Counted from the stretch's first letter, positions 9,583 through 39,793 are shown. The stretch is DNA of 53,596 nt from an uncultured Candidatus Saccharibacteria bacterium (GCA_964359655.1 CAYHVI010000004.1:1-53596); one strand, 5' to 3'. The notes: generated by a model from the letters alone, not told the origin. Numbers and translations are program-made.

Positions 9583-9603
9583 AAAAAGATAGCCTCGTAT
9601 CAA

Positions 9604-10189: not shown

Positions 10190-13100
10190 TTATCCTGTCC
10201 AGTTTGCCATCAAACGATTAGCATCAAAAATGTCAATCTTTCCTTGAGAGACGTTGCTGGGTCCAGCGTTGATGTCGAACTCCTTGAAATCTAGGCTGGT
10301 ACTATCTGTTCTTCCCCATCGGGAAAGAAGAAAAGAAACATCGTCAATATCAATGTCGCCGTCCCGATTCCCCGAACTGTCTGGCAAATCTCCGTGTTTG
10401 GTTAAGAGAACTTGTTGTTGCAAAAGAATGGTCGTATCTGACCTTTGAAGTTCCATTGTATAGAATGCAGGAGGCAAAGCAGAAAAAGTCTGGGATTGAT
10501 CGCTAAAATCAAACTCAATAGTTGAAGAGTCTTTGGGCACCAAAGGAGGAGTGGAGAGCCGCACTAAGGATCCTTCTTTCAACAGGAACTTAAAGGTATC
10601 GGAAAGAGGGATGTTTGATCCACGAATAACAAACTTGTCATCTGGTTTATCTAAAAACAGATGCGAACGCTCCGGACTGAAAGAAGATGCTCCAATAATT
10701 TCAATCCCATTAATTTCTGGGGCCTCTAATACGGGTGTGAAGGCAATGTTCAATTGGCCATCTACTACATCCACGGTTACCGTTTTCACAAGCGCAATAT
10801 TTCTCCCTCCAGTTTCGGCAAATGGATCAACTCTGTTAATAGAAATTCCCTCCGCCGTTACATTGAACACACGTTGACCTGCCCCTGTAATAACTGTGTA
10901 CGTTTCTGCGAAATGAAGCTTAACCGTGTAACGTCCATTAGGAACGGTAAGAGCATACCCACTCATTCCCCATCTCTCTGTCTGATAAATCTTATCGTCA
11001 AGGGTATTCGCAATGGCAATCGGGCCTCTATCTACAGTATTTCCTGCCACAAATCCTCTATCTGCCCCCCATACTCTGTTCTGGGAATCAGTATAAGAAG
11101 CTATTCCTCCTGCTTCAATCAAAATTGCAGAAGTCGGCGGTGGTGATCCCCCCGCACTCACGACAAGAGCCACACTAACAGTCTTTGGACTTCCTTGTGC
11201 GCCATTGGCGGTTACGGTGATGATTCCATTGTAAGAACCTACGGCTAAACCAGCTGTAGAGATTGAAACAGTAACCGTGCCATTGTTTGTTCCTGTGGTT
11301 GGATTAATAGTTAGCCAGCTTGCATTACTCGATGCAGTCCAAGCCATACTCCCTGCACCTGTATTCGATACACTAAGAGTTTGACTAGAAGGATTGGAAC
11401 CTCCCTGGGTGGCAGAGAAGATTAACGACGATGGAGAGACGTTGAGGACGGGGGTCGCTATGATTCCTCCTTCTACCTCAAATGCTCCCATGTCTGGCGC
11501 CGAACCTCTGTAGGGCCAGGCTGAATCCTGATCGTTGAATCCAGGAATCAGGACGCCACCATCTATGCCAGGGCTTCCCGGAAGGAGACGGAAGTCACGG
11601 TTTGCGGCATCCGCAAACAGCGGCATTGCCGATATTCCGTTCATCTCCAAGCCCGTGGCTGCCCTCAGCGCCGCCAGGCTGTCGTAGGTAGGCCCTTCGT
11701 ACTTGGCAAAGATGCCTCCATCTTTGTCAAAGTTGAGGTTGTAGTCTGAGAAGATCTTGCCGCCGGGATCGTTGATGGAGATTCCTCGTCCCTCAAAGTA
11801 GTAAACGTTGTTCTTGAGGAAGAGGTTGGTTGAAGGCGTGCGATCGCCGGCGTCAGATATGATCACTCCTGATGCCCCGGGGCAAGCCCCTGTATTCCAA
11901 TAGAAGGTGTTGTGGTAGAAGAATACATGGCCTGTGCCATTCTCTCCTTCTTTGATGCCCACGCATCCTGCCCATTGGTACTGGGGGCCGTAGAGCACGT
12001 TCCTGAACACGTAGGCGGGGCCTACGATGGCAGGGGAGATGCTGATACCCAGGTTGGGGCCCACTATGGTATTGCCCCATACTCGGGTATTGACGTCGTT
12101 GCCGTCCATCTCAATGCCATCGTCTGTAGCGCCGATGCACATGTTGCCGTATATGTCAGTGTCCTTATATACGTCCCCGTACTCAAAGTTGGGACTGGAC
12201 ACGATACAGTCCTCGCCGTGGGTGCGGTTGTTCTCCAAGCCAGTGTAGAAGTACTCCAGGTGGTTGTAGCGGATAACGTGTCCGCCTTTGTTATAGCAAC
12301 ATGAGTTAATACCTCCAAGGTCATCAGGAGGGTCAGCAATTGACGCAAATATCTTATTCCTTTGAACAGTGACATTAGCCACATTACTTACAGGTGCCCA
12401 TCCGCCAAGACCAGTCGATTTACCGCCAATTCTAAGGCCAGTTCTATGATAATCTTTCAGGAGGTTGTCTTCTATGATGACATCATGGGCATCATCATTG
12501 ATTAAAATCGCACCATTAGAATCGAGTATTTCAAAGCCTTTGAATCGGATGTAACTCCCGGTAATAAGTACTCCCATACTAGGTTGAGCAATAACAGTAC
12601 TATCGCCAGGAGGGTTGATTACGACTCTGTCGTTTCCAAAATTTCTAAATGTAATGTAATTATCAGAAGTTCCTGAAGCTTTTATTTGAACAGCTTCGCC
12701 ATAGGTTCCGGCCTTGACGTAAACCGTATCGCCGGTCCGAGCGTTGTCGGAGGCCTTTTGGATGGTTCTCCACGGGTTAGCTTCGGACCCGTCTCCAGAG
12801 GTGTCATTGCCGGAGGTTGAAACGTACAGGGACCTCGCCGTGGATGGAATCTGAGCAGTCTCTTTTCTCGTCCTTATGGTCTTGACGAGCGGGTTTGTTC
12901 CTGAGACACCGTCGGGATCGGCGAAGCTCACCCGCACCTCATAACCGGTGTCTGGCTCTACCAGCAGGATACTGGCGCGCCACTGGTTTTTGAAGGTGTT
13001 GGTGAAGATATTTGGGCCACCTGTTACGGTACTCCTTCTGTCCACGGTCATATCCATGCCGCGGCTCCAGGCGGAGTTTCCGGCTTTGCGGTACTCTAAT

Positions 13101-14983
13101 AAGGCTTGGTTATTCCCATTTGTATCATCAGTGAAATCCGTATACACACTGACTGATGCATAGGTAGACGCAAGATTCAATACTCCCGTTGTAGTAGTTG
13201 ATCCAGATGGGGCAGGCCCAGAAGAAGTAACGGTAAGCGACACTGCAACAGTTTTGGGACTTTGTTGAGCACCAGTCGAGGTTATGGTGATGACTCCATT
13301 GTAAGAACCTGTACTCAAACCAGCTGTGGAAACTGATGCAGTGATCGTACCATTGTTTGTTCCTGCGATTGGATTAATAGTTAGCCAGTTTGCATTACTC
13401 GATGCAGTCCAGTTCATCGTACCACCTCCTGTATTCGATACGGTAATGCTTTGATTCGCAGGATTGGATCCTCCTTGAACACCAGAGAAGGTTAATGTGG
13501 TGGGGGAGACGTTGAGAGTTGGAGTGGACGGAGACGGCAATCCAGTTTTTGTTATCGTGAATCTGTCTAAAATAAATCTACCAGGGGTAGCTGTGGAGTT
13601 ATAGGGTTGATTCTCGACCAAGCTATCTGGCATGGCAACGAACTCCACGGTCATTTCACCACCATTAACAGTTACTCTAGCATGCCCAAAATGGTGGTTG
13701 TTTCTAAAGGCACTCCATTGAGTAGGATTAGCTGCAGTACCCCATGTATCGGGGTCACCCTGCCCTTTCCCCGGATTGTATAAACTTCTACCTGCAGTAC
13801 CTGGCATAAGATAAATTGGGTATTGTGGATTTGTGCAGGACGCATAGGCCACTCCTGGCGTGCCTCCACAGCTTACAGCATCTATGCTATTCCCATTGTT
13901 TGCTACAGGAAACGTGCGCTCATAGGAGTGCTGATGACCGCATACAAATAGATCAACTTTATATTGTTCGAGAAGATCCTCTAGTACAGCTCTGGCCTCG
14001 TCGTCTGAAGCGTGACTATCGTCGTATCCCCAGTTGTAAAAACAAAAATGGGTGTAAACAACTGACCAGTCGATATTGTTTGCTAGTTTGTCTTGGTAAG
14101 CGTTCGCAAGATCATTTTTAAACCATTCGTATCGTGCTTCTCCCGGCTGCACTTTCCCGGAGCCTCCGAATACTTTTGAATGGTCAAGGTCCAGATCTAT
14201 TGAGGTAAAGTGAACATTGCCCCAATCAAATGAGTACCACATTTCCGGCATCTTCTGTCTGCAACTACTTGTACATGTATCACCAATCGGTCTACCAGGA
14301 TAGCTAAACCTGTTTAAATAAGTAACCGCAGCATCAGGCGAATACATCTCGTGGTTTCCCGGGGCAGTCATATAATATGCCCCGCTTGCTATATCATGAA
14401 TTACATTGTCGAAAAAACGGTCAACCTCTACCATGTTGCCATAGAACAGATCACCTGCAACAATAATAAGTTCCGGATTATCTTGCTTAATACTGCTTGC
14501 TACGGGAATAGGTCTAGTAGAGGGTCTATCCTCATCCCAACTCTGATCTGCAATTGCGACAAATGTAAAAGGCCTTTTGTCGCCTTTTGCTGGCGCTGTC
14601 TTAAACTTCATTTCTCGGCTCATAACTCCACTGTTTTCAACTTGATAGTAATAGGTGGTTGCTGGTATCAGTCCTGTTACTTGTGCTACGTGCATACAAC
14701 AAAATCTACCCAATGTATCTACACTAGGATAGTCATAAGAGACGCTCTGAGTAGTTATAGTATAAACTCCTGGGATAGTCCCAAGTCGTAGGGCACTTGG
14801 AGTAAGAGAACTAGTTTTCCAAGTAACAGTTACTTCTTCCCAAGGTTTTCCAGTCGTGGTAGAAATATGTGCTTGATAAAAGTTAGAGCCCGGACTTTGG
14901 GCAACACCAATTTGATCTGGCGAAAACAAAAAGAAAAATGAAAACAGTAAAAATATAACTAACGCTAAGAGTGAATATTTCAT
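10190..14983 (-). CDS. 1597-aa secreted multidomain enzyme: purple-acid-phosphatase-like metallophosphoesterase, Ig-like module, right-handed beta-helix, Ig-like module, malectin-like domain, C-terminal dockerin
   Basis: Signal peptide present. PAP motifs are GDLFY, GNHE and GHQHSYER. The beta-helix N-cap is NPWRTIQKASDNARTGDTVYVKAGTYGE. The malectin-like part reads IYQTERWG...YTVKLHFAE...RVFNV. The dockerin-like tail reads DGDIDIDDVSFLLSRW...IDIFDANRLMANW. Confidence 0.75.
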   Translation of the reverse strand: MKYSLLALVIFLLFSFFFLFSPDQIGVAQSPGSNFYQAHISTTTGKPWEEVTVTWKTSSLTPSALRLGTIPGVYTITTQSVSYDYPSVDTLGRFCCMHVAQVTGLIPATTYYYQVENSGVMSREMKFKTAPAKGDKRPFTFVAIADQSWDEDRPSTRPIPVASSIKQDNPELIIVAGDLFYGNMVEVDRFFDNVIHDIASGAYYMTAPGNHEMYSPDAAVTYLNRFSYPGRPIGDTCTSSCRQKMPEMWYSFDWGNVHFTSIDLDLDHSKVFGGSGKVQPGEARYEWFKNDLANAYQDKLANNIDWSVVYTHFCFYNWGYDDSHASDDEARAVLEDLLEQYKVDLFVCGHQHSYERTFPVANNGNSIDAVSCGGTPGVAYASCTNPQYPIYLMPGTAGRSLYNPGKGQGDPDTWGTAANPTQWSAFRNNHHFGHARVTVNGGEMTVEFVAMPDSLVENQPYNSTATPGRFILDRFTITKTGLPSPSTPTLNVSPTTLTFSGVQGGSNPANQSITVSNTGGGTMNWTASSNANWLTINPIAGTNNGTITASVSTAGLSTGSYNGVITITSTGAQQSPKTVAVSLTVTSSGPAPSGSTTTTGVLNLASTYASVSVYTDFTDDTNGNNQALLEYRKAGNSAWSRGMDMTVDRRSTVTGGPNIFTNTFKNQWRASILLVEPDTGYEVRVSFADPDGVSGTNPLVKTIRTRKETAQIPSTARSLYVSTSGNDTSGDGSEANPWRTIQKASDNARTGDTVYVKAGTYGEAVQIKASGTSDNYITFRNFGNDRVVINPPGDSTVIAQPSMGVLITGSYIRFKGFEILDSNGAILINDDAHDVIIEDNLLKDYHRTGLRIGGKSTGLGGWAPVSNVANVTVQRNKIFASIADPPDDLGGINSCCYNKGGHVIRYNHLEYFYTGLENNRTHGEDCIVSSPNFEYGDVYKDTDIYGNMCIGATDDGIEMDGNDVNTRVWGNTIVGPNLGISISPAIVGPAYVFRNVLYGPQYQWAGCVGIKEGENGTGHVFFYHNTFYWNTGACPGASGVIISDAGDRTPSTNLFLKNNVYYFEGRGISINDPGGKIFSDYNLNFDKDGGIFAKYEGPTYDSLAALRAATGLEMNGISAMPLFADAANRDFRLLPGSPGIDGGVLIPGFNDQDSAWPYRGSAPDMGAFEVEGGIIATPVLNVSPSSLIFSATQGGSNPSSQTLSVSNTGAGSMAWTASSNASWLTINPTTGTNNGTVTVSISTAGLAVGSYNGIITVTANGAQGSPKTVSVALVVSAGGSPPPTSAILIEAGGIASYTDSQNRVWGADRGFVAGNTVDRGPIAIANTLDDKIYQTERWGMSGYALTVPNGRYTVKLHFAETYTVITGAGQRVFNVTAEGISINRVDPFAETGGRNIALVKTVTVDVVDGQLNIAFTPVLEAPEINGIEIIGASSFSPERSHLFLDKPDDKFVIRGSNIPLSDTFKFLLKEGSLVRLSTPPLVPKDSSTIEFDFSDQSQTFSALPPAFYTMELQRSDTTILLQQQVLLTKHGDLPDSSGNRDGDIDIDDVSFLLSRWGRTDSTSLDFKEFDINAGPSNVSQGKIDIFDANRLMANWTG
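11165..11460. repeat. Ig-like module copy 2 (direct repeat of 13230..13525)
   Basis: About 80% nt identity by eye. It encodes PVLNVSPSSLIFSATQGGSNP...GSYNGIITVTANGAQGSPKTVSV. Confidence 0.8.
13230..13525. repeat. Ig-like module copy 1 (direct repeat of 11165..11460)
   Basis: It encodes PTLNVSPTTLTFSGVQGGSNP...GSYNGVITITSTGAQQSPKTVAV. Confidence 0.8.
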
Positions 14984-19552: not shown

Positions 19553-20104
19553 TTATAAATGGAAAAATGCTTTCACAAGTGCGTCATCTTCAATTTTGCT
19601 CACTTCCAAAATCTTCAACTGTCGCAAAGTCAAATTGAAAAATTCTCGTAAAAGTTTCACCTCCTTTTCACAAGGATATGGAAAAACCCAAATACTTTTT
19701 TGAAGCTGGTAAAACCCAAGTTCTTTTAGCTTCCCTCGAAATGCATCACGCTTAATACGTGCCTTTTCTGGGATATCAAAAATGATAAGACGCCATTTTT
19801 GATCCCATCTTTTTAGAGTATCAATCTGCAATTTGTTAATTTGAAATTTTCCAGCTTCTTTTTCTCCTTCCAAGGTTAAGCGAATATAGATCTGCCTACC
19901 TTCTTTTTCAACATATAAAAGTTTCTTTCGCCGCAAATATGAGAAAGCATCCCGTACCTTTGATTCTTGAAAACCTAACGAACAAAACTTCCCCGTGTAC
20001 ACCTTTGTCCAAAAGTAAGGAGATTGGGCAACAAAAACAAATGCGCCTACTTTGAGAAGCGAACGCAGAATCTCTTGCGAGGCCGTTCCTTTGATGCGCG
20101 CCAT
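19553..20104 (-). CDS. PaaX-like wHTH regulator with Cas2/VapD-like ferredoxin-fold segment
   Basis: 183 aa. RWRLIIFDIPEKARIKRDAFRGKLKELGFYQLQKSIWVFPY resembles the Cas2-like core seen in PaaX-type proteins. It is flanked by related palindromes. Confidence 0.5.
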   Translation of the reverse strand: MARIKGTASQEILRSLLKVGAFVFVAQSPYFWTKVYTGKFCSLGFQESKVRDAFSYLRRKKLLYVEKEGRQIYIRLTLEGEKEAGKFQINKLQIDTLKRWDQKWRLIIFDIPEKARIKRDAFRGKLKELGFYQLQKSIWVFPYPCEKEVKLLREFFNLTLRQLKILEVSKIEDDALVKAFFHL

Positions 20105-22270: not shown

Positions 22271-22714
22271 CTATCTTGCAATCTGAACTTTTCGAATAGA
22301 CTCTTCAGGACTCCCAGGTCCCTGAAATCGTCCTTTCGATTCTACACAATAGTTGTCTCCCGGACAAACGGGATCGCCAGTACCCGGCTTTAACTCAAGC
22401 AGATACTTGGAGTTGTTTGGAAGCGTCTCTGGTGTTGTAGTTGGCGCATAAGCCTCCACGCAATTAAACAAATCCGTAGTTGCATCCGGTTCAATAGCAT
22501 TGCATGAAACTTTGTCCACATACAGCCCGCGTTCGACACCTGCGTCCGCTGCCCCAAACGCAAACACCGAGTCTCCAAGCCCGCGCAGCGAGCGAAGTTC
22601 AACCACAATGAACTCGCTCACGCCCAAACCAATAGCAAGCAGCACGAGCATAAGCATTACGGCTAAAAACAGCATCGAGCCTTTTTCTTGTTGTTTTGAA
22701 TTATTGCTGTACAT
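22271..22714 (-). CDS. PilX-like minor pilin/pseudopilin
   Basis: Start trimmed to the ATG at 22714, which gives a 14-nt overlap with the upstream gene. The PilX_N-like hydrophobic N-terminus reads KGSMLFLAVMLMLVLLAIGLG. Confidence 0.45.
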   Translation of the reverse strand: MYSNNSKQQEKGSMLFLAVMLMLVLLAIGLGVSEFIVVELRSLRGLGDSVFAFGAADAGVERGLYVDKVSCNAIEPDATTDLFNCVEAYAPTTTPETLPNNSKYLLELKPGTGDPVCPGDNYCVESKGRFQGPGSPEESIRKVQIAR

Positions 22715-23309
22715 CGAAGTTACGTTGAGATATCGTTGTTTGAATGCGAATGGTTGCATTCGACCCTTCCCCTTCTGCCTCAATGACAAAGGTAATACGT
22801 GGTTGCTCATTGTCTGGAGTTATACTATCTCCTTGATACGCACCTCGCTGTACTACACGAAAATTTGTAACTTTCATTGAAGATGGGGTAAGAGGTTGTG
22901 TGGTTCCAAAATTTGCAGCGTCATGACTGTCGGGACTGGTTGCTACCTGTTCTACAATTTGGTTGGCGCTCAAGGAAAATTTTCTGCAGAAACCTTGCTT
23001 GTCGAGAAATGCAATCGAATCGTTCCCTACTGATACCTCGTAGTTCCACCCCCTTCCGACATTCGCCAAACATTGTTGAGAAGATCGAAGTTCTTTCGTC
23101 GCCTGGCGCAAAGCTCTTCCCGTATATTCTGCCACATACGAAAGCTGATTGGTACTCTTCTGTATAGAAAGCGTGTTGCGTTGGGCAGAAAAAGCAGAAA
23201 CAAATAAGTTAAACGCAGCTCCTCCCAAAAGCCCAAGCAATGCCAAAACCACCACTATTTCGACTAAGGTGAAGCCGCTACATTTGACATTTGACATTTG
23301 ACTTGGCAT
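22701..23309 (-). CDS. prepilin-type N-terminal cleavage/methylation protein (PilW/GspJ-like minor pilin)
   Basis: The leader MPSQMSNVKCSG is followed by FTLVEIVVVLALLGLL, the class III signal peptide motif G|FTLxE. Confidence 0.6.
   Translation of the reverse strand: MPSQMSNVKCSGFTLVEIVVVLALLGLLGGAAFNLFVSAFSAQRNTLSIQKSTNQLSYVAEYTGRALRQATKELRSSQQCLANVGRGWNYEVSVGNDSIAFLDKQGFCRKFSLSANQIVEQVATSPDSHDAANFGTTQPLTPSSMKVTNFRVVQRGAYQGDSITPDNEQPRITFVIEAEGEGSNATIRIQTTISQRNFDVQQ
23281..23301. repeat. heptanucleotide tandem repeat (catttga x3) in a minor-pilin leader
   Basis: Three perfect copies. It encodes the SQMSNVK part of the leader MPSQMSNVKCSG. Confidence 0.95.
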
Positions 23310-23313
23310 ACAA

Positions 23314-24159
23314 TTACGAACTTGCGATCGTAAACTCGATTTTAAAATCGTTCACGCTTGTGTTGTAAAAATCTCCCTGGCAACGTACGTGATACGTATG
23401 AATTCCGGGCCCCAAACCGCTTACGCCTACAGAATGCGATGTTCGAGGTACATCGGGCGTAAAGTTGTTCGTCATTGCGGTATATCTTATGCCGGCGGTT
23501 GTGGAATATCTGCATACTGCTCCTTGATCGGTTTGGAGAGATAGTGTAGTAGCTGTGGTTCCAGCAGGCAGAGTTCCGCTTGGGTTTCCGTTTGAACGGG
23601 CAGGAGGCGGAAGCGTAAGCCAGTTATACAATTCCGTGGAAGCAACTACACTTCTCCCCTCCCACGAAACCTCTACATTGACCTTAAGTTTATCGGTTTC
23701 GCTGTGATCAATGATAATTTTTCGTTTAAACGGCGTCGCGGTACCGACTCCGTATATGTACATCCCATTTACATCTTTTGAAAGGAAGTTCAACGAACCT
23801 CCTACGGTCGTAAGAGAGGCGTCATCATGGTCTGCTTCGCAGCCGGCAACGCAACCCGTTAAGTCGATAACCGGTGCTGGACTGCCTGAACAGGAAGGCA
23901 CATCAACTCTAACTCCTTTCCATGCATTTGGGTTTTTAATTGGGTCGCACTGGCCCTTGCGAATCGCGAGATAGTTTGCGTCGCGCAAATTGCGCACAAG
24001 CTCAATGCCTTCCTGCGCAAGATACGAAGCCTCCAAATGCTGTCCCACGTCTCCAACTGCGCGCAAATTAAACACCACAAGCGAAAACACGCCTCCCGCC
24101 ACCAAACTAATTACAAATGCCGCCACAATAATCTCCAATAAGGTAAATCCGCGATTCAT
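23314..24159 (-). CDS. PilV-like minor pilin with C-terminal beta-sandwich module
   Basis: MNRG|FTLLEIIVAAFVISL prepilin motif. The C-terminal ~98 aa (AVCRYSTTAGIRYTAM...YHVRCQGD) are homologous to the repeats in 8146..9582. Confidence 0.65.
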   Translation of the reverse strand: MNRGFTLLEIIVAAFVISLVAGGVFSLVVFNLRAVGDVGQHLEASYLAQEGIELVRNLRDANYLAIRKGQCDPIKNPNAWKGVRVDVPSCSGSPAPVIDLTGCVAGCEADHDDASLTTVGGSLNFLSKDVNGMYIYGVGTATPFKRKIIIDHSETDKLKVNVEVSWEGRSVVASTELYNWLTLPPPARSNGNPSGTLPAGTTATTLSLQTDQGAVCRYSTTAGIRYTAMTNNFTPDVPRTSHSVGVSGLGPGIHTYHVRCQGDFYNTSVNDFKIEFTIASS

Positions 24160-24160
24160 A

Positions 24161-24691
24161 TTATTGTATTTCTATTACTCCTCTTGTCGTTATCGTAATG
24201 ATGCGTTCATGATCTCCCAATTTCACAACAATTTCACCTTGTGCGCCCGGAATAGTATCTCCATCTATGTATACTTTCGGGTCAGGCGATTCAAAAAATA
24301 AGTGGAGCGGAGATGGAGTCACGCTTTGAATAAGCGTTCCTTCCGGCGCTGTAATATTTGGCATTTTTTCATCAGGAGGATTTCCATCCCACTCATAGTT
24401 GCCGTTGCAATCCACATAACGCCAGTACACAGAAGAATTGCCCTCAAAATATATCCCATACCCTGGCTTAATGGGATCTCCTGACGCGCACTCATTGTTT
24501 GCGTTGTAAGTGCGCGCGCTTACTGCCCAGTTGAGCGTGCCGCGAATGTCTTGGGCGATTCGCTGCGTAGCTCGATCCAAAGCCAGGCTGTCTTGCGCAG
24601 AACGCCAAGACACCATCGTTATCCCCGAAATCAAACCAATAATCGCCGCCACCACAATAAGCTCGACAAGCGTGAAACCAGCATTCTTCAT
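24161..24691 (-). CDS. GspH/FimT-like minor pilin
   Basis: MKNAG|FTLVELIVVAAIIGLISG prepilin motif. The following LALDRATQRIAQDIR is GspH-like. Confidence 0.6.
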   Translation of the reverse strand: MKNAGFTLVELIVVAAIIGLISGITMVSWRSAQDSLALDRATQRIAQDIRGTLNWAVSARTYNANNECASGDPIKPGYGIYFEGNSSVYWRYVDCNGNYEWDGNPPDEKMPNITAPEGTLIQSVTPSPLHLFFESPDPKVYIDGDTIPGAQGEIVVKLGDHERIITITTRGVIEIQ

Positions 24692-24695
24692 ACAC

Positions 24696-27600
24696 CTAGA
24701 AAGGTGAAATTTCTTTCCACCCTGGAAATGGAATATAAATATCTAAAGATTTTTCTTTCTCGCAGAACTCTCCCAGCAAAGGATCGGTAACCCGCAGATA
24801 CACTCTATTTCCAGAAACAGGAGCAGAATACGTATAATTGCATTCAGTAGCAGTGCAATCAATTTCTGTGGCACCGTAACTCCCATCATACTTGAAATCC
24901 CACTCATAGTCATAAGGAGGACTGGTACACGAACCCGGACCACCTCCGCAATCTGACTTATCTTTGAAGTGCACAACCTCATTTTGCGTTGGATTCGCTG
25001 GGGTATAACTAAAATCAAGAACAGGGGGCAGAGGAGGCGTGGTAAAGGATTCTGGATCGCTTTGTTTCCACCAATTAGACCACTGCGACAAAAGCCCGGG
25101 ATTATCTTTTACGCGCACCGACCAATAATAGGTTGTATTATACGATAAGTTTAAGAGATCGTGAATACAATTTTCGAACTCACCCGTTGCAGGATTAAAG
25201 TTTGCGTCGCAGCTCATCAAAATAGCAGAATCGCAAGTTCCGTAGGCTTGGGCATCGTCCACAGGACCTGCTTTTGAAGGATTATTAGAGTTTACGCCTT
25301 CAGTACAACTATTTTGATCTGGGGTAGTAAAAAGATTGGTAAATGCTCCTTGCTGAACTACGACTTGATATGCATCTGGTTTATCTCCAAAATCAGTTTC
25401 CTCAACATTCCAATGTAATTGAACGGGCGGACTTACAAAACCGCAAGCCATAGCACCCGCAGGAAATGTAAAGTTTACAGGGTTTCTTACCTTTGGCTCT
25501 TCGTTAAATATGACACGGGCATTATCGAAATTGATAGAAGTTCCCACAACAGGACATCCTCTTTCAGGACTTCCATCGGAGACATTATCTCTGTTGGTAT
25601 CACACCACTCTACATGGCTAAAACTAATCCATCCAATTCCAATACCTCCCCATCCCCATCCTTGCAATTCTCCTGTTCCTTTATGCCATAAAACTCCAAA
25701 TGGCCTATAACCGCCACTTTCCTTGATATTCTGAATATCTTCAGCAGTAAGCGCCCTGTCATAAGCTCGAACTTCGTCAATCACTCTTCCCGAAAGAGGA
25801 TCGGGAGAAAGTCCACCATATCCCCCAACAAGAAATTTATTCAATGCAGTGTTGAGTACAGCTCCTGTTCCGATTGTACAAGGGGAACCACTACATAGTT
25901 TATTTAAACCCTTTCTTTCAGTTGCATTAATATATACCTTGACTTCGGTTGATTCTATAAATCCATCGCCATCGCCGCCATTTACAACAGCATCATTAGC
26001 TGGAACCACCACCGCAAGGTGAAACCATCTAGAAGATACAGGACCTGCATTTACAACTACGCTTCCTGGAAAAGTATAGTGAATCGTCGCACCTCCTCCA
26101 GAGTAAAATACAAGATAGTTTGTGCCGCTGATATTCTCGACTCGGAAACTAAAATCTTGACCAAGCGCATCCTGCCCATCTGCACCATACTCATCTGGAA
26201 GGGTTCCCTGGCTGAAAATTTTCCCAGGCAACTTTTCTGCTTTTACCCAGGCAGTAAAAGATCGTGCATGAGTTCCTGTAATGTTAGGGAGCGTAACCTC
26301 CATACGCTCTTGGTGACCGGCTTCGTGATGAAAACGAACCGCTCCAGGATTAGATCCAAAGTTGTCTGCAATCCAGTTGTCATCACCTATACCGTACAAT
26401 GCTGCATGTCTTTGATTTGCGGTCGAGTCAATCACCATCTTTTCACTTCCTGCAGGAATAATTTTTTCGAACTGCCAATGGCCCAACAGATTTGGATCAT
26501 CTGGCTCTGGCAAGGGTTCACTGCATGCAATTCTTCTTTCTGCATGCGCCCCATAATCATCGTAGAAATAATCTACGCCAGGCACACCGGCTGCGCTTCC
26601 TCCTTGCGCTCCTAATCGAAGCCAGGAAATCTGATTGACTCCTAATTCTGCGGTAGTTGTTGTATATTCTAAATTTCCATCAACCCACACTTCCACAAGA
26701 TCATTCGCTAGACCAGTATTTCTTTTCACATGATATTCCATGCAATACCACTGGGTTATGTTAAGATCTAAAGGAGTAGGATTCCAAGAGCCTGCTAAAC
26801 TAACATAAAAACTATTATTTGGATCTCCACTCGTACGTCGAATGCCAAGACTAACGATATTTGCAGTAGCACTTGTTGGCCCATAACTCATAGAACTAAT
26901 ATTGAAGTGATTTGCCTGCGGTACATTGGCATTCAAATTGAACTTGAAGCGCGCATACATCTCATCTGTTGCAACGATATTTTTTCTTAGAAAGGCGTTT
27001 GCGTTTGTTGCTCCCCCAGTAGTCTTCGTATGCAAAATCTTTCCTGCCGCGTCAGGATCTGCAGCAGTTCCCGGGACAATCTCAACGATATTTCCTGAAT
27101 TCACGTTCCCCGTATCGTTATCCCCCCATTTCGAAGTATCTCCTCCCTCAAAAGTATCGCTGAAAAAGTTTTCAGCGTCGCTAATAAACCCCCTCAACGA
27201 TATCCATCCGTCCCAACCTCCGGTTTGATCAGGGGATTTTAAGGGGCCTTCGCAATTATTTGGCACTCCATCTGCAGCATCATCAATAACCGAACACGCT
27301 CTTGCCCAACCGCAAAGCTCATATTTATCCGCATTGGTTTCGCACGGCGGGTCGTTCCCGCCTCCAAGATCAATGGCGGCAGGAACAGGAGCAGTGCCTG
27401 GCGCCTCACCATTCACGGGATCAGGATCCGGATAAGGATCATTAGCGGCAGTTGGATTAAATTTAATCCACCCAACATTGGGAGACCATGCGTATCCGGA
27501 AAAGAAACCAGTGGCTGGATTTACCCTCACTCCATAGTTTTCCAAGGGCACACTTGCATTGTCTCCTCCACAACCTCCCGTCGCATCTATAAAACCATTT

Positions 27601-27770
27601 TTATCAACGTCGCAATAATCTCGTGGATGCATTGCAATCCACCCAACGTTCGACGACCATGCATATCCATGTACTTGCACCTCGTCTTGCGCATTCACCA
27701 AAGAAAATACTCCAAACGATAAAGCGCCGACAAAAAAAATAAAATAATAGTGTATCTTTCTCCAATGCAT
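24696..27770 (-). CDS. 1024-aa secreted adhesin-like protein (GYAWSxNVGWI repeats, ConA/LamG-like domains, C-terminal PKD-like domain)
   Basis: N-terminal signal/TM present. The repeated motif appears as GYAWSSNVGWIAM, GYAWSPNVGWIKF and GWGWGGIGIGWISF. The LamG hallmark is IDEVRAYDRALTAEDIQ. The PKD-like tail reads LDFSYTPANPTQNEVVHFKD...YEWDF. It sits in the minor-pilin operon. Confidence 0.7.
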   Translation of the reverse strand: MHWRKIHYYFIFFVGALSFGVFSLVNAQDEVQVHGYAWSSNVGWIAMHPRDYCDVDKNGFIDATGGCGGDNASVPLENYGVRVNPATGFFSGYAWSPNVGWIKFNPTAANDPYPDPDPVNGEAPGTAPVPAAIDLGGGNDPPCETNADKYELCGWARACSVIDDAADGVPNNCEGPLKSPDQTGGWDGWISLRGFISDAENFFSDTFEGGDTSKWGDNDTGNVNSGNIVEIVPGTAADPDAAGKILHTKTTGGATNANAFLRKNIVATDEMYARFKFNLNANVPQANHFNISSMSYGPTSATANIVSLGIRRTSGDPNNSFYVSLAGSWNPTPLDLNITQWYCMEYHVKRNTGLANDLVEVWVDGNLEYTTTTAELGVNQISWLRLGAQGGSAAGVPGVDYFYDDYGAHAERRIACSEPLPEPDDPNLLGHWQFEKIIPAGSEKMVIDSTANQRHAALYGIGDDNWIADNFGSNPGAVRFHHEAGHQERMEVTLPNITGTHARSFTAWVKAEKLPGKIFSQGTLPDEYGADGQDALGQDFSFRVENISGTNYLVFYSGGGATIHYTFPGSVVVNAGPVSSRWFHLAVVVPANDAVVNGGDGDGFIESTEVKVYINATERKGLNKLCSGSPCTIGTGAVLNTALNKFLVGGYGGLSPDPLSGRVIDEVRAYDRALTAEDIQNIKESGGYRPFGVLWHKGTGELQGWGWGGIGIGWISFSHVEWCDTNRDNVSDGSPERGCPVVGTSINFDNARVIFNEEPKVRNPVNFTFPAGAMACGFVSPPVQLHWNVEETDFGDKPDAYQVVVQQGAFTNLFTTPDQNSCTEGVNSNNPSKAGPVDDAQAYGTCDSAILMSCDANFNPATGEFENCIHDLLNLSYNTTYYWSVRVKDNPGLLSQWSNWWKQSDPESFTTPPLPPVLDFSYTPANPTQNEVVHFKDKSDCGGGPGSCTSPPYDYEWDFKYDGSYGATEIDCTATECNYTYSAPVSGNRVYLRVTDPLLGEFCEKEKSLDIYIPFPGWKEISPF

Positions 27771-27782
27771 GTCTTAGAAGTT

Positions 27783-28181
27783 CTACCTTTTTTTCCAACC
27801 AGTACCCATACAAACCCAGATATCCCCATTCCCGGCAGAAGCAGCAGGATCAACCATTAATCTTCCGCGCTCATCTGCTGCATCACAATCTGCAGCGGGT
27901 GGCGCTCCGGTCACGATCGCAAGCTGAATATATCCCTGCACAGCAACCAAAGCATCGATTGCAACGTTATTATTGTTGAGAGCAAGTCCGCCTCCTTTAA
28001 TCTGCCCAGTATTGCTTGTATTTATGGGGGGCTCTACGTTACCTCCTGGTGGATCAGCCCCAGGCGGTACGAATTGGGCCGTTACAAGGTATCCTGTGAA
28101 TATAAACCCGAGCATGCTCCCTACTATTGCCGATAGCGAAAAGTTCTTAAAAAATTTGAGAAATATGCTTTTTGTGCTCAT
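27783..28181 (-). CDS. small secreted/anchored protein of unknown function
   Basis: 132 aa with an N-terminal hydrophobic anchor and a Pro/Gly-rich segment. It is the first gene of the minor-pilin operon, 12 nt upstream of the giant ORF. Confidence 0.45.
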   Translation of the reverse strand: MSTKSIFLKFFKNFSLSAIVGSMLGFIFTGYLVTAQFVPPGADPPGGNVEPPINTSNTGQIKGGGLALNNNNVAIDALVAVQGYIQLAIVTGAPPAADCDAADERGRLMVDPAASAGNGDIWVCMGTGWKKR

Positions 28182-28198
28182 ATAGTATTTATTATTAA

Positions 28199-28507
28199 TT
28201 ATTGACCAAGACGGTTAAGTAATTGTTGATACTCCTCCCCTGAAAGTTTTGGCTGCGCATGAGGAGGAGCAGAAAGTCGTTTGACAAGCTCTTCTTCCTC
28301 CTCTTCTGTAAGTATCGGCTCTGCATCATCCGGCGCAGAAATTCTTTCGAGGATCAATTCCTCCTTTGTTTTTTGCCTTTCTGTGGGTACGGGTCCAGCA
28401 GATTTTTCAAACCATCCATATTCTCGCGCAAGATAATAACTAACCACAAGAAAAGCTCCAACCAAAATTATCCCAAGAAAAATCTGAAAAAGTTTTTTTG
28501 ATTGCAT
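28199..28507 (-). CDS. small single-TM protein, acidic C-terminus
   Basis: 102 aa with one TM (IFLGIILVGAFLVVSYYL). It has no overlapping better ORF. Confidence 0.4.
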   Translation of the reverse strand: MQSKKLFQIFLGIILVGAFLVVSYYLAREYGWFEKSAGPVPTERQKTKEELILERISAPDDAEPILTEEEEEELVKRLSAPPHAQPKLSGEEYQQLLNRLGQ

Positions 28508-29430: not shown

Positions 29431-30253
29431 TGTTTGAAGCCGGGCTTCAAACAGTGTATAATTACAAGTAATGAAGAATTTTCAGCAAAACACGCCTTCT
29501 CTTAATGAGACTACTCCTTACCATGTGCTTTCCCGCGCCATCGAGGGTCGTCCAATTTTTCAATCTAAAGACGATTGTTATCGTTTTATTTTCCAAATGT
29601 ACATTACGAATCACGGAAGTCCAGCTTCCAATCTTCACCGGAGAGATGTTATAAAAGTCGCCCAATCGCTCCTTGACGGCGAAGATATCCCAAAAAACTT
29701 CTTCACCAAACAGCATTCTCCTCTTGTACATTTCCTTAGCTTTACCCACGTGGTCAACCACTACCATTTTCTTCTATTGCCGATAGAAGAAAATGGGGTT
29801 TCTCGTTATATGCAAAAACTTAATACTGCCTTCGCGCGGTATTTCAATATCAAATACGCGAGGAGAGGTCCTCTTTTTGAGAGTAGATATAAAACGATCG
29901 CGATTGAAAGCGAAAGTCAGCTTGATGCAATCATTCGATATATCAATGTAAAGAACCCGCTTGATGTGCACCAACCTGGGTGGCGTGAAAGAGGGTTGCA
30001 AAACAAAAAAGAGGCTTGGGATTTTCTGTTTCGCTATCCTTTTTCGAGTTTCCCAGATATTTTTGGAAACAGGAACTCAAAACTTATTGCCCAAGGATCA
30101 ATAAAAAATCAGTATCTCGAGCGAGTATCTCTTTATGGGAAAGATTCTTATCTGAAATTCCTTCAAGCAGATTTTCATTCCTCACTTTCCCCAGATATAT
30201 CCCTCGAATAGCCGTGTTCGAAGCGGTGTTCGAAGCCCGGCTTCGAACACGGC
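29431..30253 (+). mobile_element. RAYT gene with flanking REP-like palindromes
   Basis: Left palindrome tgtttgaagccgggcttcaaaca (29431..29453). Right palindrome gtgttcgaagcccggcttcgaacac lies within 30211..30253, with a duplicated 5' arm gccgtgttcgaagc. Confidence 0.6.
29471..30211 (+). CDS. REP-associated tyrosine transposase / IS200-like Y1 (HUH) transposase
   Basis: 246 aa with YHVLSRAIEGRPIF, the HUH motif NHYHFLL and the catalytic-Tyr region IRYINVKNP. It is one of only 3 plus-strand genes. Confidence 0.75.
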   Translation: MKNFQQNTPSLNETTPYHVLSRAIEGRPIFQSKDDCYRFIFQMYITNHGSPASNLHRRDVIKVAQSLLDGEDIPKNFFTKQHSPLVHFLSFTHVVNHYHFLLLPIEENGVSRYMQKLNTAFARYFNIKYARRGPLFESRYKTIAIESESQLDAIIRYINVKNPLDVHQPGWRERGLQNKKEAWDFLFRYPFSSFPDIFGNRNSKLIAQGSIKNQYLERVSLYGKDSYLKFLQADFHSSLSPDISLE

Positions 30254-30309: not shown

Positions 30310-30337
30310 GAAAACGCTCCGGAGATGGAGCGTTTTC
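30310..30337. terminator. hairpin gaaaacgctcc-ggagat-ggagcgttttc
   Basis: 11-bp stem with T-rich sequence following on the minus strand. It lies between the RAYT gene and the pilin gene and could act in either direction. Confidence 0.4.
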
Positions 30338-31086: not shown

Positions 31087-31127
31087 GGAAAACTCCCCCC
31101 ACACTAATTCACAGAATTAGTGTGGGG
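31087..31127 (-). terminator. terminator after pilC
   Basis: Stem ccccccacactaattc/gaattagtgtggggg (31095..31127) begins 3 nt after the pilC stop. It is followed by agttttcc. Confidence 0.65.
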
Positions 31128-31129
31128 GT

Positions 31130-38704: not shown

Positions 38705-39793
38705 TCATTTCGTCCAGTTTGCCATTAATCTATTGGCATCAAAAATATCTATAACTCCTTGAGAAATGTTGTTTGGCCCTGCATTAATATCTGCTTCAAG
38801 TAAATCCTCCAATTTTGTACTTCCCCATTTTGTGAGAAGTCTAGATATATCAAAAAGATCAATCTTCCCATCGTCGTTAAGATCTCCCCGTGATTTTAGC
38901 GTTGGCGAAGAGGGAAAAGTAGGCGTTGGCGTAGGGGTGGGTATTGGTAAAACAGGATTACTACTCTTCTGCCATACTCTGACGTAGTCAACATCATAGT
39001 AACTTGGGAATGAGGTGAATGCATCTGGTGACCCAGGCCAGTTTCCCCCAACTGCAAGATTAAGTAAAACATACATTGGCTCTGACGATATGGTCGAAGA
39101 ATCAGAAAAACGCCAGCGCTCTACTCCATCGACATACCATACAATTTCGCTTGATGCCCAGTGAACTCCAAACGTATGCCAGTCTTGGGAAAAATCTGGG
39201 CCAATCCAATTATTTCCTTGATCTACTTTCGAGCCGTCGGCATTCAAGTAGTGATAGTGCATTCGTTGAATGTTTGGAGTATCTCCGAGAATCTCTGAAA
39301 TATCAATTTCGGGACGCGACTTATAGCTCAAAGGCAGCATCCAAAATGCTGGCCATAATCCTTTTCCTTTTGGAATTTTTACTCGAGCTTCTGCGTAGCC
39401 ATACGTGAAAGTAAACCCAGGGGGTTTTTCGTATTTTCTACCGCCACCCATAACCATGCCGGATGTGTATTGATAAGTTTTGCCATTCCAGCCAACCATG
39501 TTGCGTTTTTGTGCTTGAAGTCTCAAAAACCCATCTTGCACAAACACGTCACCAGAACTATACAACTCAAGCTCGTTATTGCTTTCAATAGTACAAGTAT
39601 CAGTTGCCCACCAAAAACAGGTATGCCATTTACTCTTATCCAAAGAAGTTCCAATAAATTCATCGCTAAAAACTAAAACCCACTCTCCTTCAATTGGCGG
39701 TAAAGGCATATCAGTACTTTGTGCAGCTGCTGTCGAGGAAAAGAAAATAATGCAACTAATGCTCAATCCAAAAATCGCTAATTGTTTTCTCAT
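38705..39793 (-). CDS. secreted glycoside hydrolase family 16 (beta-glucanase/laminarinase-like) with C-terminal dockerin
   Basis: Signal peptide present. The GH16 catalytic motif is EIDISE. It has a PT linker PIPTPTPTPT. The dockerin tail reads DLNDDGKIDLFDISRLLTKW...IDIFDANRLMANW. Confidence 0.85.
   Translation of the reverse strand: MRKQLAIFGLSISCIIFFSSTAAAQSTDMPLPPIEGEWVLVFSDEFIGTSLDKSKWHTCFWWATDTCTIESNNELELYSSGDVFVQDGFLRLQAQKRNMVGWNGKTYQYTSGMVMGGGRKYEKPPGFTFTYGYAEARVKIPKGKGLWPAFWMLPLSYKSRPEIDISEILGDTPNIQRMHYHYLNADGSKVDQGNNWIGPDFSQDWHTFGVHWASSEIVWYVDGVERWRFSDSSTISSEPMYVLLNLAVGGNWPGSPDAFTSFPSYYDVDYVRVWQKSSNPVLPIPTPTPTPTFPSSPTLKSRGDLNDDGKIDLFDISRLLTKWGSTKLEDLLEADINAGPNNISQGVIDIFDANRLMANWTK

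What the first reader, a model, noticed from the sequence alone, without database searches (positions are those of the whole stretch)
24696..28181. 1024-aa LamG/PKD protein with GYAWSxNVGWI repeats occupies the PilY1 slot of the minor-pilin operon
The operon order on the minus strand is: a small secreted protein (27783..28181), the giant ORF, then FimT/GspH-like, PilV-like, PilW-like and PilX-like pseudopilins, with gaps or overlaps of 12, 4, 1, 4 and -14 nt. This mirrors fimU-pilVWXY1, but the large non-pilin partner has no recognisable PilY1 features. Instead it has a Sec-type N-terminus and a repeated Trp-rich motif (GYAWSSNVGWIAM, GYAWSPNVGWIKF, GWGWGGIGIGWISF). It also has two ConA/LamG-like regions (hallmark IDEVRAYDRALTAEDIQ) and a PKD-like C-terminus. 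It is a good candidate for the pilus-associated host adhesin of an episymbiont. The function of the Trp-rich repeat is unknown to me.
Basis: partly seen in the sequence, partly recalled or inferred. Interest (0 to 1): 0.65.

Follow-up and report, generated by a model that had tools for sequence, protein, structure and literature searches.

The report
Trp-repeat surface protein in pilus operon
A 1024-residue secreted protein of an uncharacterised family specific to ultrasmall (CPR/Patescibacteria) bacteria sits inside the type IV pilus minor-pilin operon where other bacteria keep the tip adhesin PilY1, and it is the best candidate for that role, but this has not been shown by experiment.

Summary
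ORF 24696..27770(-) encodes 1024 aa. It lies between a small secreted protein and four minor-pilin genes, with gaps of 12, 4, 1, 4 and -14 nt, inside a complete T4P cluster.

The protein belongs to a large Patescibacteria family (1238 proteins at E<=1e-10). The usual form is about 420 aa:
- a Sec signal;
- one all-beta domain of four Trp-rich repeats, with no Pfam, NCBIfam or PDB-sequence match;
- an Ig-like domain and a PKD domain;
- a conserved free C-terminal tail, PxW[KR]E[IV]xPF.

The window protein is this core with a ~490-aa insertion between repeats 3 and 4. The insertion holds two ConA-like jelly rolls (PL20/Cip1-like and Laminin_G_3). Positional orthologues measure 438, 721 and 1132 aa and carry no insert or different ones.

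Synteny with pilD, the minor pilins and ligA recurs across lineages in two gene orders. Only about 28% of sampled family genes are T4P-linked. Others sit among translation genes or beside a fibre-like secreted family.

Best reading (0.5): a PilY1/MshQ-like but non-homologous tip adhesin, docked by its C-terminal tail, with the inserted lectin-like domains binding host glycans. No complex model, RNA or protein data were available. I rate it a new variant of a known kind.

The parts
27783..28181 (-). Small secreted protein (132 aa) of the 'AWTxP...PPxxNVxxPINxGxxxQxKxGxL' family (called ANCH here). It has a Sec-type signal (..LVTA|QF..), a conserved N-terminal module and a short C-terminal part.
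   Evidence: No Pfam or NCBIfam hit. P52, N54, Q60, K62 and G64 are invariant in 34 family members. A family member lies within 5 genes of 30 of 87 Trp-repeat genes and immediately upstream of 12. Members have variable, fibre-like C-terminal regions.
27690..27770 (-). Signal peptide of the large protein (aa 1-27, ...SLVNA|QDE). It is Sec/SPase I type, not a prepilin signal.
   Evidence: Read from the sequence. An AxA-like site 5-8 residues before the first Trp repeat is seen in the relatives printed; A38 is nearly invariant in the 102-sequence alignment. AF2 models a helix at aa 2-24 followed by a low-confidence linker.
27189..27680 (-). Trp-repeat domain, N-terminal part (aa 31-194). Repeats W1 (35-47), W2 (79-104) and W3 (153-192). 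The W1-W2 loop contains a DxDxNGxxD-like loop (CDVDKNGFID).
   Evidence: Profile match E=4e-50. G92, W95, W101, G154, W155, G188 and W189 are invariant. No Pfam, NCBIfam or PDB-sequence hit.
26496..27173 (-). Inserted domain 1 (aa ~200-425): a ConA-like jelly roll of the Polysacc_lyase (PL20)/Cip1-like type.
   Evidence: Weak direct hit to PF21340, E=0.055. 70 representative clusters at E<=1e-3. Relatives pass the cut-offs for PF14099 and PF21340. The same domain occurs in the type IV pilin P0204.
25731..26291 (-). Inserted domain 2 (aa 494-680): Laminin_G_3 / ConA-like lectin fold.
   Evidence: PF13385 at E=2e-7 on the whole protein and E=1e-9 on the segment.
25566..25706 (-). Trp repeat W4 (aa 689-735). 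It completes the Trp-repeat domain after the ~490-aa insertion.
   Evidence: The core HMM is split cleanly: positions 9-152 map to aa 7-199 and positions 152-413 map to aa 689-1024. G713 and W714 are invariant.
25071..25508 (-). Ig-like domain (aa ~755-900, motif YYWSVRVKD...WS.W), related to Ig_Rha78A_N.
   Evidence: PF25788, 30.6 bits against a cut-off of 27.4 on the segment. Foldseek finds tandem FN3/Ig hits.
24735..25058 (-). PKD-like domain (aa ~905-1012).
   Evidence: Relatives carry PF18911/PF00801 in the aligned region. AF2 pLDDT is 73-92.
24699..24734 (-). Conserved C-terminal tail (aa 1013-1024, IPFPGWKEISPF). Proposed docking beta-strand.
   Evidence: E1020 is invariant in A1. P426, E430 and P433 are at least 90% conserved in 102 core proteins. 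In the high-confidence model the tail lies outside the PKD domain. The motif occurs in 23 of 1053 ORFs of the fetched loci, and all 23 are Trp-repeat proteins.
24161..24691 (-). Minor pilin 1 (176 aa), GspH/FimU-like N-terminus.
   Evidence: N_methyl E=2.6e-6. TIGR01708 (GspH) E=1e-8, N-terminal part only and below its cut-off.
23314..24159 (-). Minor pilin 2 (281 aa) with an extra C-terminal beta-rich module.
   Evidence: N_methyl E=9e-6. C-terminal extension read from the sequence.
22701..23309 (-). Minor pilin 3 (202 aa).
   Evidence: N_methyl E=5e-7.
22271..22714 (-). PilX/GspK-like minor pilin (147 aa from M33) without Glu5. Proposed acceptor of the C-terminal strand.
   Evidence: PilX_N E=7.6e-4, below its cut-off. 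A small gene occupies the same position before ligA in syntenic loci.

Best explanation
The large ORF encodes a Sec-exported, non-pilin accessory protein of the type IV pilus. It is a functional analogue of PilY1/PilC/MshQ, not a homologue.

Conserved core. The core consists of a four-repeat Trp-rich beta domain, an Ig-like domain, a PKD domain and a short free C-terminal tail (PGWKEISPF). I propose the core is the pilus-docking part. The tail would be added as a beta-strand to the small PilX/GspK-like minor pilin encoded four genes downstream, which would fix the protein on the priming/tip complex formed by the four minor pilins.

Variable part. The Trp-repeat domain acts as a scaffold whose inter-repeat loops accept extra domains. 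In this organism the W3/W4 loop carries two ConA-like jelly rolls (PL20/Cip1-like and LamG). These would be the lineage-specific modules that bind, or possibly cut, glycans on the host cell surface.

What is shown: gene anatomy, family membership, domain content, the insertion architecture, conserved synteny, and a conserved, family-specific C-terminal tail.

What is inferred: co-transcription, presence on the pilus, strand addition to the PilX-like pilin, and glycan or host binding.
For: - Operon embedding. The order is pilD, 102-aa gene, small secreted gene, this gene, four minor pilins, ligA. Gaps are <=26 nt and no terminator-like site lies in any of these short gaps. pilMNO, pilB, pilT, pilC and the major pilin lie upstream.
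- Conserved synteny. The same order occurs in the relatives' loci L003/L004, L005, L028, L056, L065 and L087, with large-protein lengths of 1132, 438, 721, 721, 451 and 484 aa. A second order (pilD, pilins, Trp-repeat gene, ligA) occurs in L020, L057 and L070. Linkage kept through rearrangement argues for function.
- Frequency. 24 of 87 family genes in 80 GTDB loci lie within 5 genes of at least two pilin-like genes or of T4P machinery.
- C-terminal tail. It is conserved and specific to the family. In a model with mean pLDDT 89 it lies outside the last domain. PMC13533445 shows that the last ~10 residues of PilC/PilY1 (and, by modelling, MshQ) complete the PilK/PilX beta-sheet and are needed for assembly.
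- Export. The N-terminus is Sec-type and not a prepilin signal, as for PilY1.
- Variable inserts at two hot-spot loops on a conserved core, as expected for a docking scaffold that presents diversifying binding modules.
- The first inserted domain type also occurs on a genuine type IV pilin, P0204.
- Lectin-like modules on pilins are proposed adhesins in cultivated Saccharibacteria (PMC11623550).
Against: - About 72% of sampled family genes are not near pilin or T4P genes. Whole paralogue groups sit between prfA and rpsB or between fusA and tuf.
- Two of four compact relatives looked up on long contigs stand alone among housekeeping genes.
- In L001 the WKEIxPF tail occurs with no pilin gene within 8 kb.
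- The small secreted protein's family is at least as frequent a neighbour as pilins (30 of 87, and undercounted). The partner of the tail or of the Trp domain could be that family.
- There is no PilY1, PilC or MshQ-specific domain.
- The gene lies upstream of the pilins here.
- No multimer modelling, RNA or proteomic data could be obtained.
- The fold of the Trp domain could not be assigned.
Confidence: 0.5

Rival explanations
1. It is a general cell-surface protein that is not physically part of the pilus. The conserved Trp-repeat domain holds the protein on the bacterium's own envelope, for example by non-covalent binding to a wall polymer, as other Trp/Gly-rich repeat modules do in monoderm bacteria. 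The Ig, PKD and inserted lectin domains project outward. Clustering with pilus genes would reflect only co-regulation of host-contact genes.
For: Most family members are not linked to pilins. Paralogues sit in highly expressed housekeeping operons, prfA-rpsB and fusA-tuf, as expected for abundant structural surface proteins. The Trp-repeat domain lies immediately after the signal peptide and is the most conserved part. Several paralogues occur in one locus.
Against: The gene is packed tightly between pilD and the minor pilins, and this is conserved in two different orders. No Pfam hit to any known wall-binding module (GW, SLH, LysM, CW_binding). The conserved free C-terminal tail has no role in this model.
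Confidence: 0.25
2. It is an adaptor for interchangeable fibre adhesins. The conserved Trp-repeat domain, or the C-terminal tail, binds the conserved N-terminal module (AWTxP..PPxxNVxxPINxGxxxQxKxGxL) of the small upstream protein's family. That family's C-terminal parts are variable and resemble tail fibres. The pair forms a surface fibre complex, either on the pilus tip or on its own.
For: A member of that family lies within 5 genes of 30 of 87 Trp-repeat genes and immediately upstream of 12, both in pilin-linked and in pilin-free loci. Its N-terminal module has invariant residues while its C-termini vary (LVIVD, Peptidase_S74, collagen and GP38 hits in single members). An S26 signal peptidase gene lies among these genes in L087.
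Against: This rests on gene neighbourhood alone. No interaction model or co-variation test was possible. Many Trp-repeat genes have no such neighbour. The window's member is only 132 aa, with little room for an adhesin part.
Confidence: 0.15
3. It is a secreted glycan-degrading enzyme. The PL20/Cip1-like jelly roll would be a polysaccharide lyase acting on host capsule or wall, and the other domains would be carbohydrate-binding or spacer modules with no link to the pilus.
For: Relatives of the aa 197-440 domain pass the Pfam cut-offs for Polysacc_lyase (PF14099) and Cip1-like (PF21340). Other secreted glycan-active proteins are encoded in the window: a GH16 protein and a malectin/BACON/phosphatase protein.
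Against: The direct hit of the window domain is weak (E=0.055). Catalytic residues were not examined. The domain is an optional insert that is absent from positional orthologues, so it cannot be the family's core function. The same domain is also carried on a pilin.
Confidence: 0.1

Closest known systems
PilY1 (Pseudomonas, Myxococcus) / PilC (Neisseria) type IV pilus tip adhesins
   Same: A large non-pilin protein with a Sec signal, encoded in the minor-pilin operon. It combines a conserved part with a variable adhesive part. It has a short conserved extreme C-terminus, which in PilC/PilY1 is the strand that completes the PilK/PilX sheet (PMC13533445).
   Different: No PilY1/PilC beta-propeller domain (no PF05567 hit). 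The conserved part is instead a four-repeat Trp-rich domain plus Ig and PKD domains. The gene lies upstream of the pilins in this subfamily. The organism is a CPR bacterium, for which the literature infers a Gram-positive-like envelope without PilQ (PMC6744442). Strand addition has not been tested.
MshQ of the Vibrio cholerae MSHA pilus
   Same: A ~1200-residue non-pilin protein encoded next to the PilIJK-type minor pilins mshDOP. Its extreme C-terminus is predicted to add a strand to the PilK homologue (PMC13533445). From my own knowledge, not checked here, MshQ carries LamG-type domains.
   Different: No detectable sequence relationship outside a possible LamG fold. MshQ lies downstream of its pilins. 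MshQ has no Trp-repeat, Ig or PKD core.
Modular or lectin-bearing type IV pilins (Streptococcus sanguinis PilB/PilC; Nanosynbacter lyticus TM7x PilX1/PilX2)
   Same: Lectin-like or propeller modules presented by T4P in a monoderm Gram-positive species (S. sanguinis) and in a CPR bacterium (TM7x). TM7x PilX2 is needed for host binding (PMC11623550; PMC8179133). A relative of the window's first inserted domain is grafted on a pilin (P0204).
   Different: In those proteins the module is fused to a pilin helix. The window protein has no pilin N-terminus and would have to dock non-covalently.
Laminin_G_3 / ConA-like and PL20/Cip1-like jelly-roll domains; PKD and Ig_Rha78A_N domains
   Same: These domains are present.
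   Different: They are accessory parts. The family-defining Trp-repeat domain is in none of the libraries searched (Pfam, NCBIfam, PDB sequences).

Membership tests
PilY1/PilC family | C-terminal PilY1/PilC beta-propeller domain (Pfam Neisseria_PilC, PF05567) | tested here: not met
   No such hit at E<=0.1 on the whole protein or at E<=10 on four segments. The Foldseek top hits to the core model are only FN3/Ig/PKD tandems.
PilY1/PilC family | Encoded in one operon with the core minor pilins (GspH/I/J/K-like) | tested here: met
   Gaps of 4, 1, 4 and -14 nt to four pilin genes. This is conserved in L003, L005, L028, L056, L065 and L087. The gene is upstream here and downstream in L020, L057 and L070.
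PilY1/PilC family | Non-pilin with a Sec-type signal peptide | tested here: met
   The N-terminus MHWRK-hydrophobic-VNA|QDE has no G-F-T-L-x-E motif and no N_methyl hit. No dedicated signal-peptide predictor was available.
PilY1/PilC family | The last ~10 residues form a beta-strand that completes the PilX/PilK sheet | tested here: inconclusive
   The tail is conserved, family-specific and free. No multimer model or experiment was possible.
MshQ-like | MshQ-specific C-terminal domain (I recall it as DUF6701) together with LamG domains | tested here: not met
   LamG is present. No other MshQ-type Pfam domain was reported. The composition of MshQ is from memory.
Type IV pilin / modular pilin | Class III signal and N-terminal methylation motif with Glu5 | tested here: not met
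   No N_methyl or TIGR02532 hit for the large protein, while the three downstream genes hit both and the PilX-like gene hits only PilX_N weakly.
Laminin_G_3 (ConA-like lectin/glucanase superfamily) | Match to PF13385 above its gathering score | tested here: met
   31.6 bits on the whole protein and 39.1 bits on the segment, against a cut-off of 27.6, at aa 494-680.
Polysacc_lyase (PL20)/Cip1-like | Match above the gathering score; catalytic residues | tested here: inconclusive
   The window domain scores 13.2 bits against a cut-off of 27. Its relatives P0199, P0212 and P0221 pass. Catalytic residues were not examined.
CPR Trp-repeat/Ig/PKD family (defined here) | Four G[WY]AWSxNxGWIxF-type repeats, an Ig_Rha78A_N-like domain, a PKD domain and a conserved C-terminal tail | tested here: met
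   The core HMM built from 102 proteins covers aa 7-199 and 689-1024 (E=4e-37 and 5e-42), with a single 489-aa insertion at position 152.

The most novel reading that the evidence does not exclude
The Trp-repeat/Ig/PKD protein is the hub of a modular host-recognition system peculiar to Patescibacteria. Its C-terminal tail plugs into the minor-pilin tip complex. Its conserved Trp-repeat domain is a new fold that accepts domain insertions at two hot-spot loops. That domain also binds the conserved N-terminal module of a family of secreted, tail-fibre-like proteins with interchangeable receptor-binding ends. Paralogues with other tail classes would dock the same kind of module to other surface structures.
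Probability: 0.15. Interest if true: 0.85.

Novelty: new variant of a known kind. Interest (0 to 1): 0.62.

Why it matters
All cultivated CPR bacteria so far are episymbionts that attach to host cells, and type IV pili are their most conserved surface machine. How the pilus recognises a host is known only in outline, and only for one cultivated Saccharibacterium. For the far larger Parcubacteria/Paceibacteria groups no tip adhesin has been named.

This analysis defines a large, unannotated family (now labelled 'PKD domain-containing' or 'hypothetical') that occupies the adhesin position in their pilus operons. The family has a clear conserved docking core and swappable lectin-like inserts. That gives concrete targets: the tail, the PilX-like pilin and the inserted jelly rolls. 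These can be taken to multimer modelling, glycan arrays and genetics in emerging CPR co-culture systems.

It also gives a test of whether the C-terminal strand-addition rule for tip proteins extends to this deep-branching lineage. The Trp-repeat domain itself is a candidate new fold or domain family.

Tried and rejected
- Full-length AF2 with 28 heterogeneous relatives gave mean pLDDT 53, and its Foldseek hits were only tandem Ig domains. It was replaced by a compact positional orthologue with 102 sequences (pLDDT 89).
- Foldseek of that model against PDB and BFVD again returned only FN3/Ig/PKD tandems (TM<=0.31). The Trp domain's fold stays unassigned, and a domain-only model could not be made.
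- A profile of the Trp domain against PDB sequences found nothing below E=1. The whole protein found nothing either.
- A literature search for the motif strings found nothing relevant. MshQ+LamG found nothing. CPR pilus papers do not mention the family.
- No RNA run holds the gene. Laying DNA contigs confirmed the assembly but showed no informative strain variation at about 5x depth.
- A word-based homologue search for the 132-aa protein found only 3 close relatives. The family was instead defined from neighbours in the fetched loci.
- The idea that the two jelly rolls are an internal duplication was rejected: BLASTP E=0.34.
- The idea that the tail is a sortase or PEP-CTERM-type sorting signal was rejected. 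There is no LPXTG and no following transmembrane segment in most members, and the motif occurs only in this family.
- The first search for related loci attempt with alignment A1 failed because no block was conserved enough. It was redone with a Trp-domain alignment.


Full report
**1. The observation.**
The 1024-aa ORF at 24696..27770(-) and its neighbours are as described.
- Upstream lies a 132-aa ORF (27783..28181), 12 nt away.
- Downstream lie three genes with the prepilin N-methylation motif: 176 aa, 281 aa and 202 aa, with gaps of 4, 1 and 4 nt.
- After them comes a small gene with a weak PilX_N match. Its likely start is M33 (nt 22714). That start gives the typical PilX/GspK-type N-terminus without Glu5 and a 14-nt overlap.
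- The junction sequences show stop and start codons separated by aacttctaagac and by gtgt.
- The run continues into ligA, 18 nt further on.
- Upstream on the same strand are a 102-aa membrane protein, pilD, the major pilin (followed by a strong terminator-like hairpin), pilC, pilT, a response regulator, pilB and pilMNO-like genes.
- No terminator-like site falls in the short gaps of the pilD-to-ligA run. Co-transcription is therefore likely but not shown, because no RNA run holds the sequence.
- DNA contigs from independent groundwater metagenome runs cover the gene, including both borders of the central insertion, with no differences.

**2. Anatomy of the protein.**
- The N-terminus is Sec/SPase-I-like (..SLVNA|QDE). 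It has no class III pilin signal.
- Pfam finds Laminin_G_3 at aa 494-680. It finds an Ig_Rha78A_N-like domain near aa 875-900.
- Pfam finds nothing for aa 29-196. It finds no PilY1/PilC domain.
- NCBIfam and PDB sequences give nothing.

**3. The family.**
The first search gave 73 relatives; those that carry an organism name are labelled Patescibacteria. They share only aa ~22-195, ~690-770 and ~870-1024 with the query. In short relatives these blocks are contiguous.

A search with the 438-aa positional orthologue from a Wildermuthbacteria genome (L005) found 1238 proteins at E<=1e-10. Most are 390-490 aa and are named 'PKD domain-containing' or 'hypothetical'. An alignment of 102 of them defines the core:
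- signal peptide;
- W1 (GWAWSENIGWISF);
- W2 (YGVxIDxxTGxFSGYAWSENIGWIxF);
- W3 (GWARA...GGWDGWIKL);
- W4 (YGV...GWAWGxxVVGWISF);
- an Ig-like domain (YYWRVxVWD..S.W);
- a PKD domain;
- the end PLPxWxEIxP(F).

AF2 on this alignment gives mean pLDDT 89. The Trp region is one all-beta domain of about 15 short strands. Two beta-sandwich domains follow. The last ~13 residues lie outside any domain.

Foldseek against PDB and BFVD returns only FN3/Ig/PKD tandems, so the Trp domain has no recognisable structural relative at this level of analysis.

A scan of GTDB species genomes found more than 535 loci, almost all labelled Patescibacteria.

**4. The LamG part is an insertion.**
The core HMM matches the window protein as positions 9-152 (aa 7-199) and 152-413 (aa 689-1024). 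This is a clean 489-aa insertion in the W3/W4 loop.

Positional orthologues differ:
- L005 has no insertion (438 aa).
- L056 and L028 have about 200 aa in the W1/W2 loop (721 aa).
- L003 has inserts at both sites (1132 aa).

Across 277 family sequences, inserts of at least 60 aa cluster at two sites. These are the W1/W2 loop (14 cases) and the W3/W4 loop (5 cases). Another 33 proteins have long N-terminal extensions.

The window's insert holds two unrelated jelly rolls. One is the Laminin_G_3 domain. The other (aa ~197-440) has 70 relative clusters. Its relatives pass the Pfam cut-offs for Polysacc_lyase (PL20) and Cip1-like, which I recall belong to the ConA-like clan. One relative, P0204, is a true type IV pilin (MNQKGFSFTELAVV...) that carries this domain.

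**5. Gene neighbourhood.**
The locus of P0003 is syntenic gene for gene with the window, including the IS200-like gene on the opposite strand.

In 80 GTDB loci I called ORFs and marked four things: Trp-repeat genes, pilin-like N-termini, T4P machinery, and the family of the small upstream protein.
- Of 87 Trp-repeat genes, 17 have at least two pilin-like genes within five genes. 18 have T4P machinery within five genes. 24 have either.
- 30 have a member of the small protein's family within five genes. This is an undercount.

Two pilin-linked orders recur:
- (i) pilD, ~100-aa gene, small-protein family, Trp-repeat gene, three pilins, PilX-like gene, ligA. The tail class is mainly W[KR]E[IV]xP(F).
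- (ii) pilD, pilins, Trp-repeat gene, ligA. The tail is mostly of the class (F)EYRVxDIxP(R).

Other paralogue groups sit between prfA and rpsB-tsf, or between fusA and tuf, with other tail classes. Of four compact relatives looked up on long contigs, one is in the pilus operon, one is next to the small-protein family and two stand alone. Pilus linkage is therefore a property of a subfamily, which includes the window gene. It is not a property of the whole family.

**6. The C-terminal tail.**
Many relatives end exactly with W[KR]E[IV]xPF. In the 102-sequence core alignment P426, E430 and P433 are at least 90% conserved. A regular expression for the motif matches 23 of 1053 ORFs in the fetched loci, and all 23 are Trp-repeat proteins. 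It is therefore not a general sorting signal.

A 2026 study shows that the last ~10-12 residues of PilC/PilY1 complete the beta-sheet of PilK/PilX in the tip initiation complex and are required for piliation. It predicts the same for MshQ, a ~1200-residue protein encoded next to mshDOP (PMC13533445). The window protein has the matching features: non-pilin, Sec-exported, encoded with a GspH/I/J/K-like set, with a conserved free tail. Whether the tail docks on the PilX-like pilin could not be tested here.

**7. The small upstream protein.**
It belongs to a family with these features:
- a Sec-type signal;
- a conserved start of the mature chain (AWTxPxxxPPxxNVxAPINxGxxxQxKxGxL; P, N, Q, K and G invariant);
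- highly variable C-terminal parts, with single members hitting LVIVD, Peptidase_S74, collagen and GP38.

In L087 three such genes and an S26 signal peptidase gene lie between pilD and the Trp-repeat gene. The frequent pairing suggests a physical partnership, but there is no test of it.

**8. Interpretation.**
The best-supported reading is a PilY1/MshQ-like tip or priming-complex protein that is not homologous to them. The conserved core would dock it and the inserted ConA-like domains would bind host glycans (confidence 0.5).

The rivals, all compatible with parts of the data, are:
- a pilus-independent surface protein anchored by the Trp domain (0.25);
- an adaptor for the fibre-like family (0.15);
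- a secreted lyase (0.1).

**9. Novelty.**
The principle of a large non-pilin adhesin encoded with minor pilins is known, and so are lectin modules on pili. Three things are not described in the literature and libraries searched: the family itself, its Trp-repeat domain with insertion hot spots, and its tail classes. I rate it a new variant of a known kind, with interest about 0.6.

Noticed in passing
window 27783..28181(-); L001:1088-7970; L087:2304-5888; L005:4082-6703: The small upstream ORF belongs to a widespread Patescibacteria family. Members have a Sec signal, a conserved mature N-terminus (AWTxP..PPxxNVxAPINxGxxxQxKxGxL) and very variable, tail-fibre-like C-terminal parts of 120-900 aa. 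They often occur in tandem arrays and next to Trp-repeat genes. In L087 an S26 signal peptidase gene lies among them.
   Followed up: partly
window 28199..28507(-): A 102-aa protein with one N-terminal membrane helix and an acidic, repetitive tail (..RISAP.. / ..RLSAP..) lies between pilD and the small secreted protein. A gene of 96-110 aa holds the same position in L003, L005, L028, L056, L065 and L087. It has no family hit.
   Followed up: no
window 29471..30211(+): An IS200-like Y1 transposase-family gene (PF01797, E=2e-6) lies on the opposite strand between the major pilin and pilD. A 237-aa gene with a weak hit to the same Pfam family (Y1_Tnp) sits at the same place in the syntenic loci L003 and L004, so it looks like a resident, conserved gene rather than a recent insertion.
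   Followed up: partly
window 23314..24159(-): The second minor pilin (281 aa) has a ~100-residue beta-rich C-terminal extension (..GTLPAGTTATTLSLQTDQGAVCRYS...HTYHVRCQGDFYNTS..). That would make it a modular pilin. There is no Pfam hit for the extension.
   Followed up: no
L008, L032, L049, L053, L058, L067 (prfA - Trp-repeat gene(s) - rpsB - tsf); L025, L026, L030, L034 (fusA - Trp-repeat gene - small membrane protein - tuf): Paralogous Trp-repeat genes occupy conserved positions inside translation-factor and ribosomal-protein gene runs. Each group has its own conserved C-terminal tail class (Y.V..V.P. and ..IP.A.EV).
   Followed up: partly
P0204 (504 aa): A type IV pilin (MNQKGFSFTELAVV..., GspH-like) carries a relative (33% identical over the matched stretches) of the PL20/Cip1-like jelly-roll domain that is inserted in the window protein.
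   Followed up: partly
window 10190..14983(-), 8146..9603(-), 38705..39793(-), 42038..43183(-): Several secreted proteins carry dockerin or cohesin features. A 1597-aa purple-acid-phosphatase/BACON/malectin protein, a 485-aa cohesin+dockerin protein and a GH16 protein all end with a similar tail (..FDANRLMANWT[GK] / ..VDLSIMLSNWTK). This suggests a cohesin-dockerin type surface assembly in this CPR genome.
   Followed up: partly
window 27600..27630(-) (aa 52-61, CDVDKNGFID): The W1-W2 loop holds a Cys-flanked DxDxNGxxD-type motif that is conserved in many relatives (CDxNxNGxxD). It resembles EF-hand/dockerin-like Ca2+ loops, and PilY1 function is Ca2+-dependent. The resemblance is from memory and was not tested.
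   Followed up: no
window 30310..30337(-) and 31096..31128: Strong terminator-like hairpins lie directly after the major pilin gene (11-bp stem plus a T-run) and between pilC and the pilin gene (15-bp stem). This is consistent with separate high-level expression of the major pilin.
   Followed up: no
window 19553..20104(-): A PaaX-like (PaaX_M, E=9e-22) putative regulator lies just downstream of ligA.
   Followed up: no
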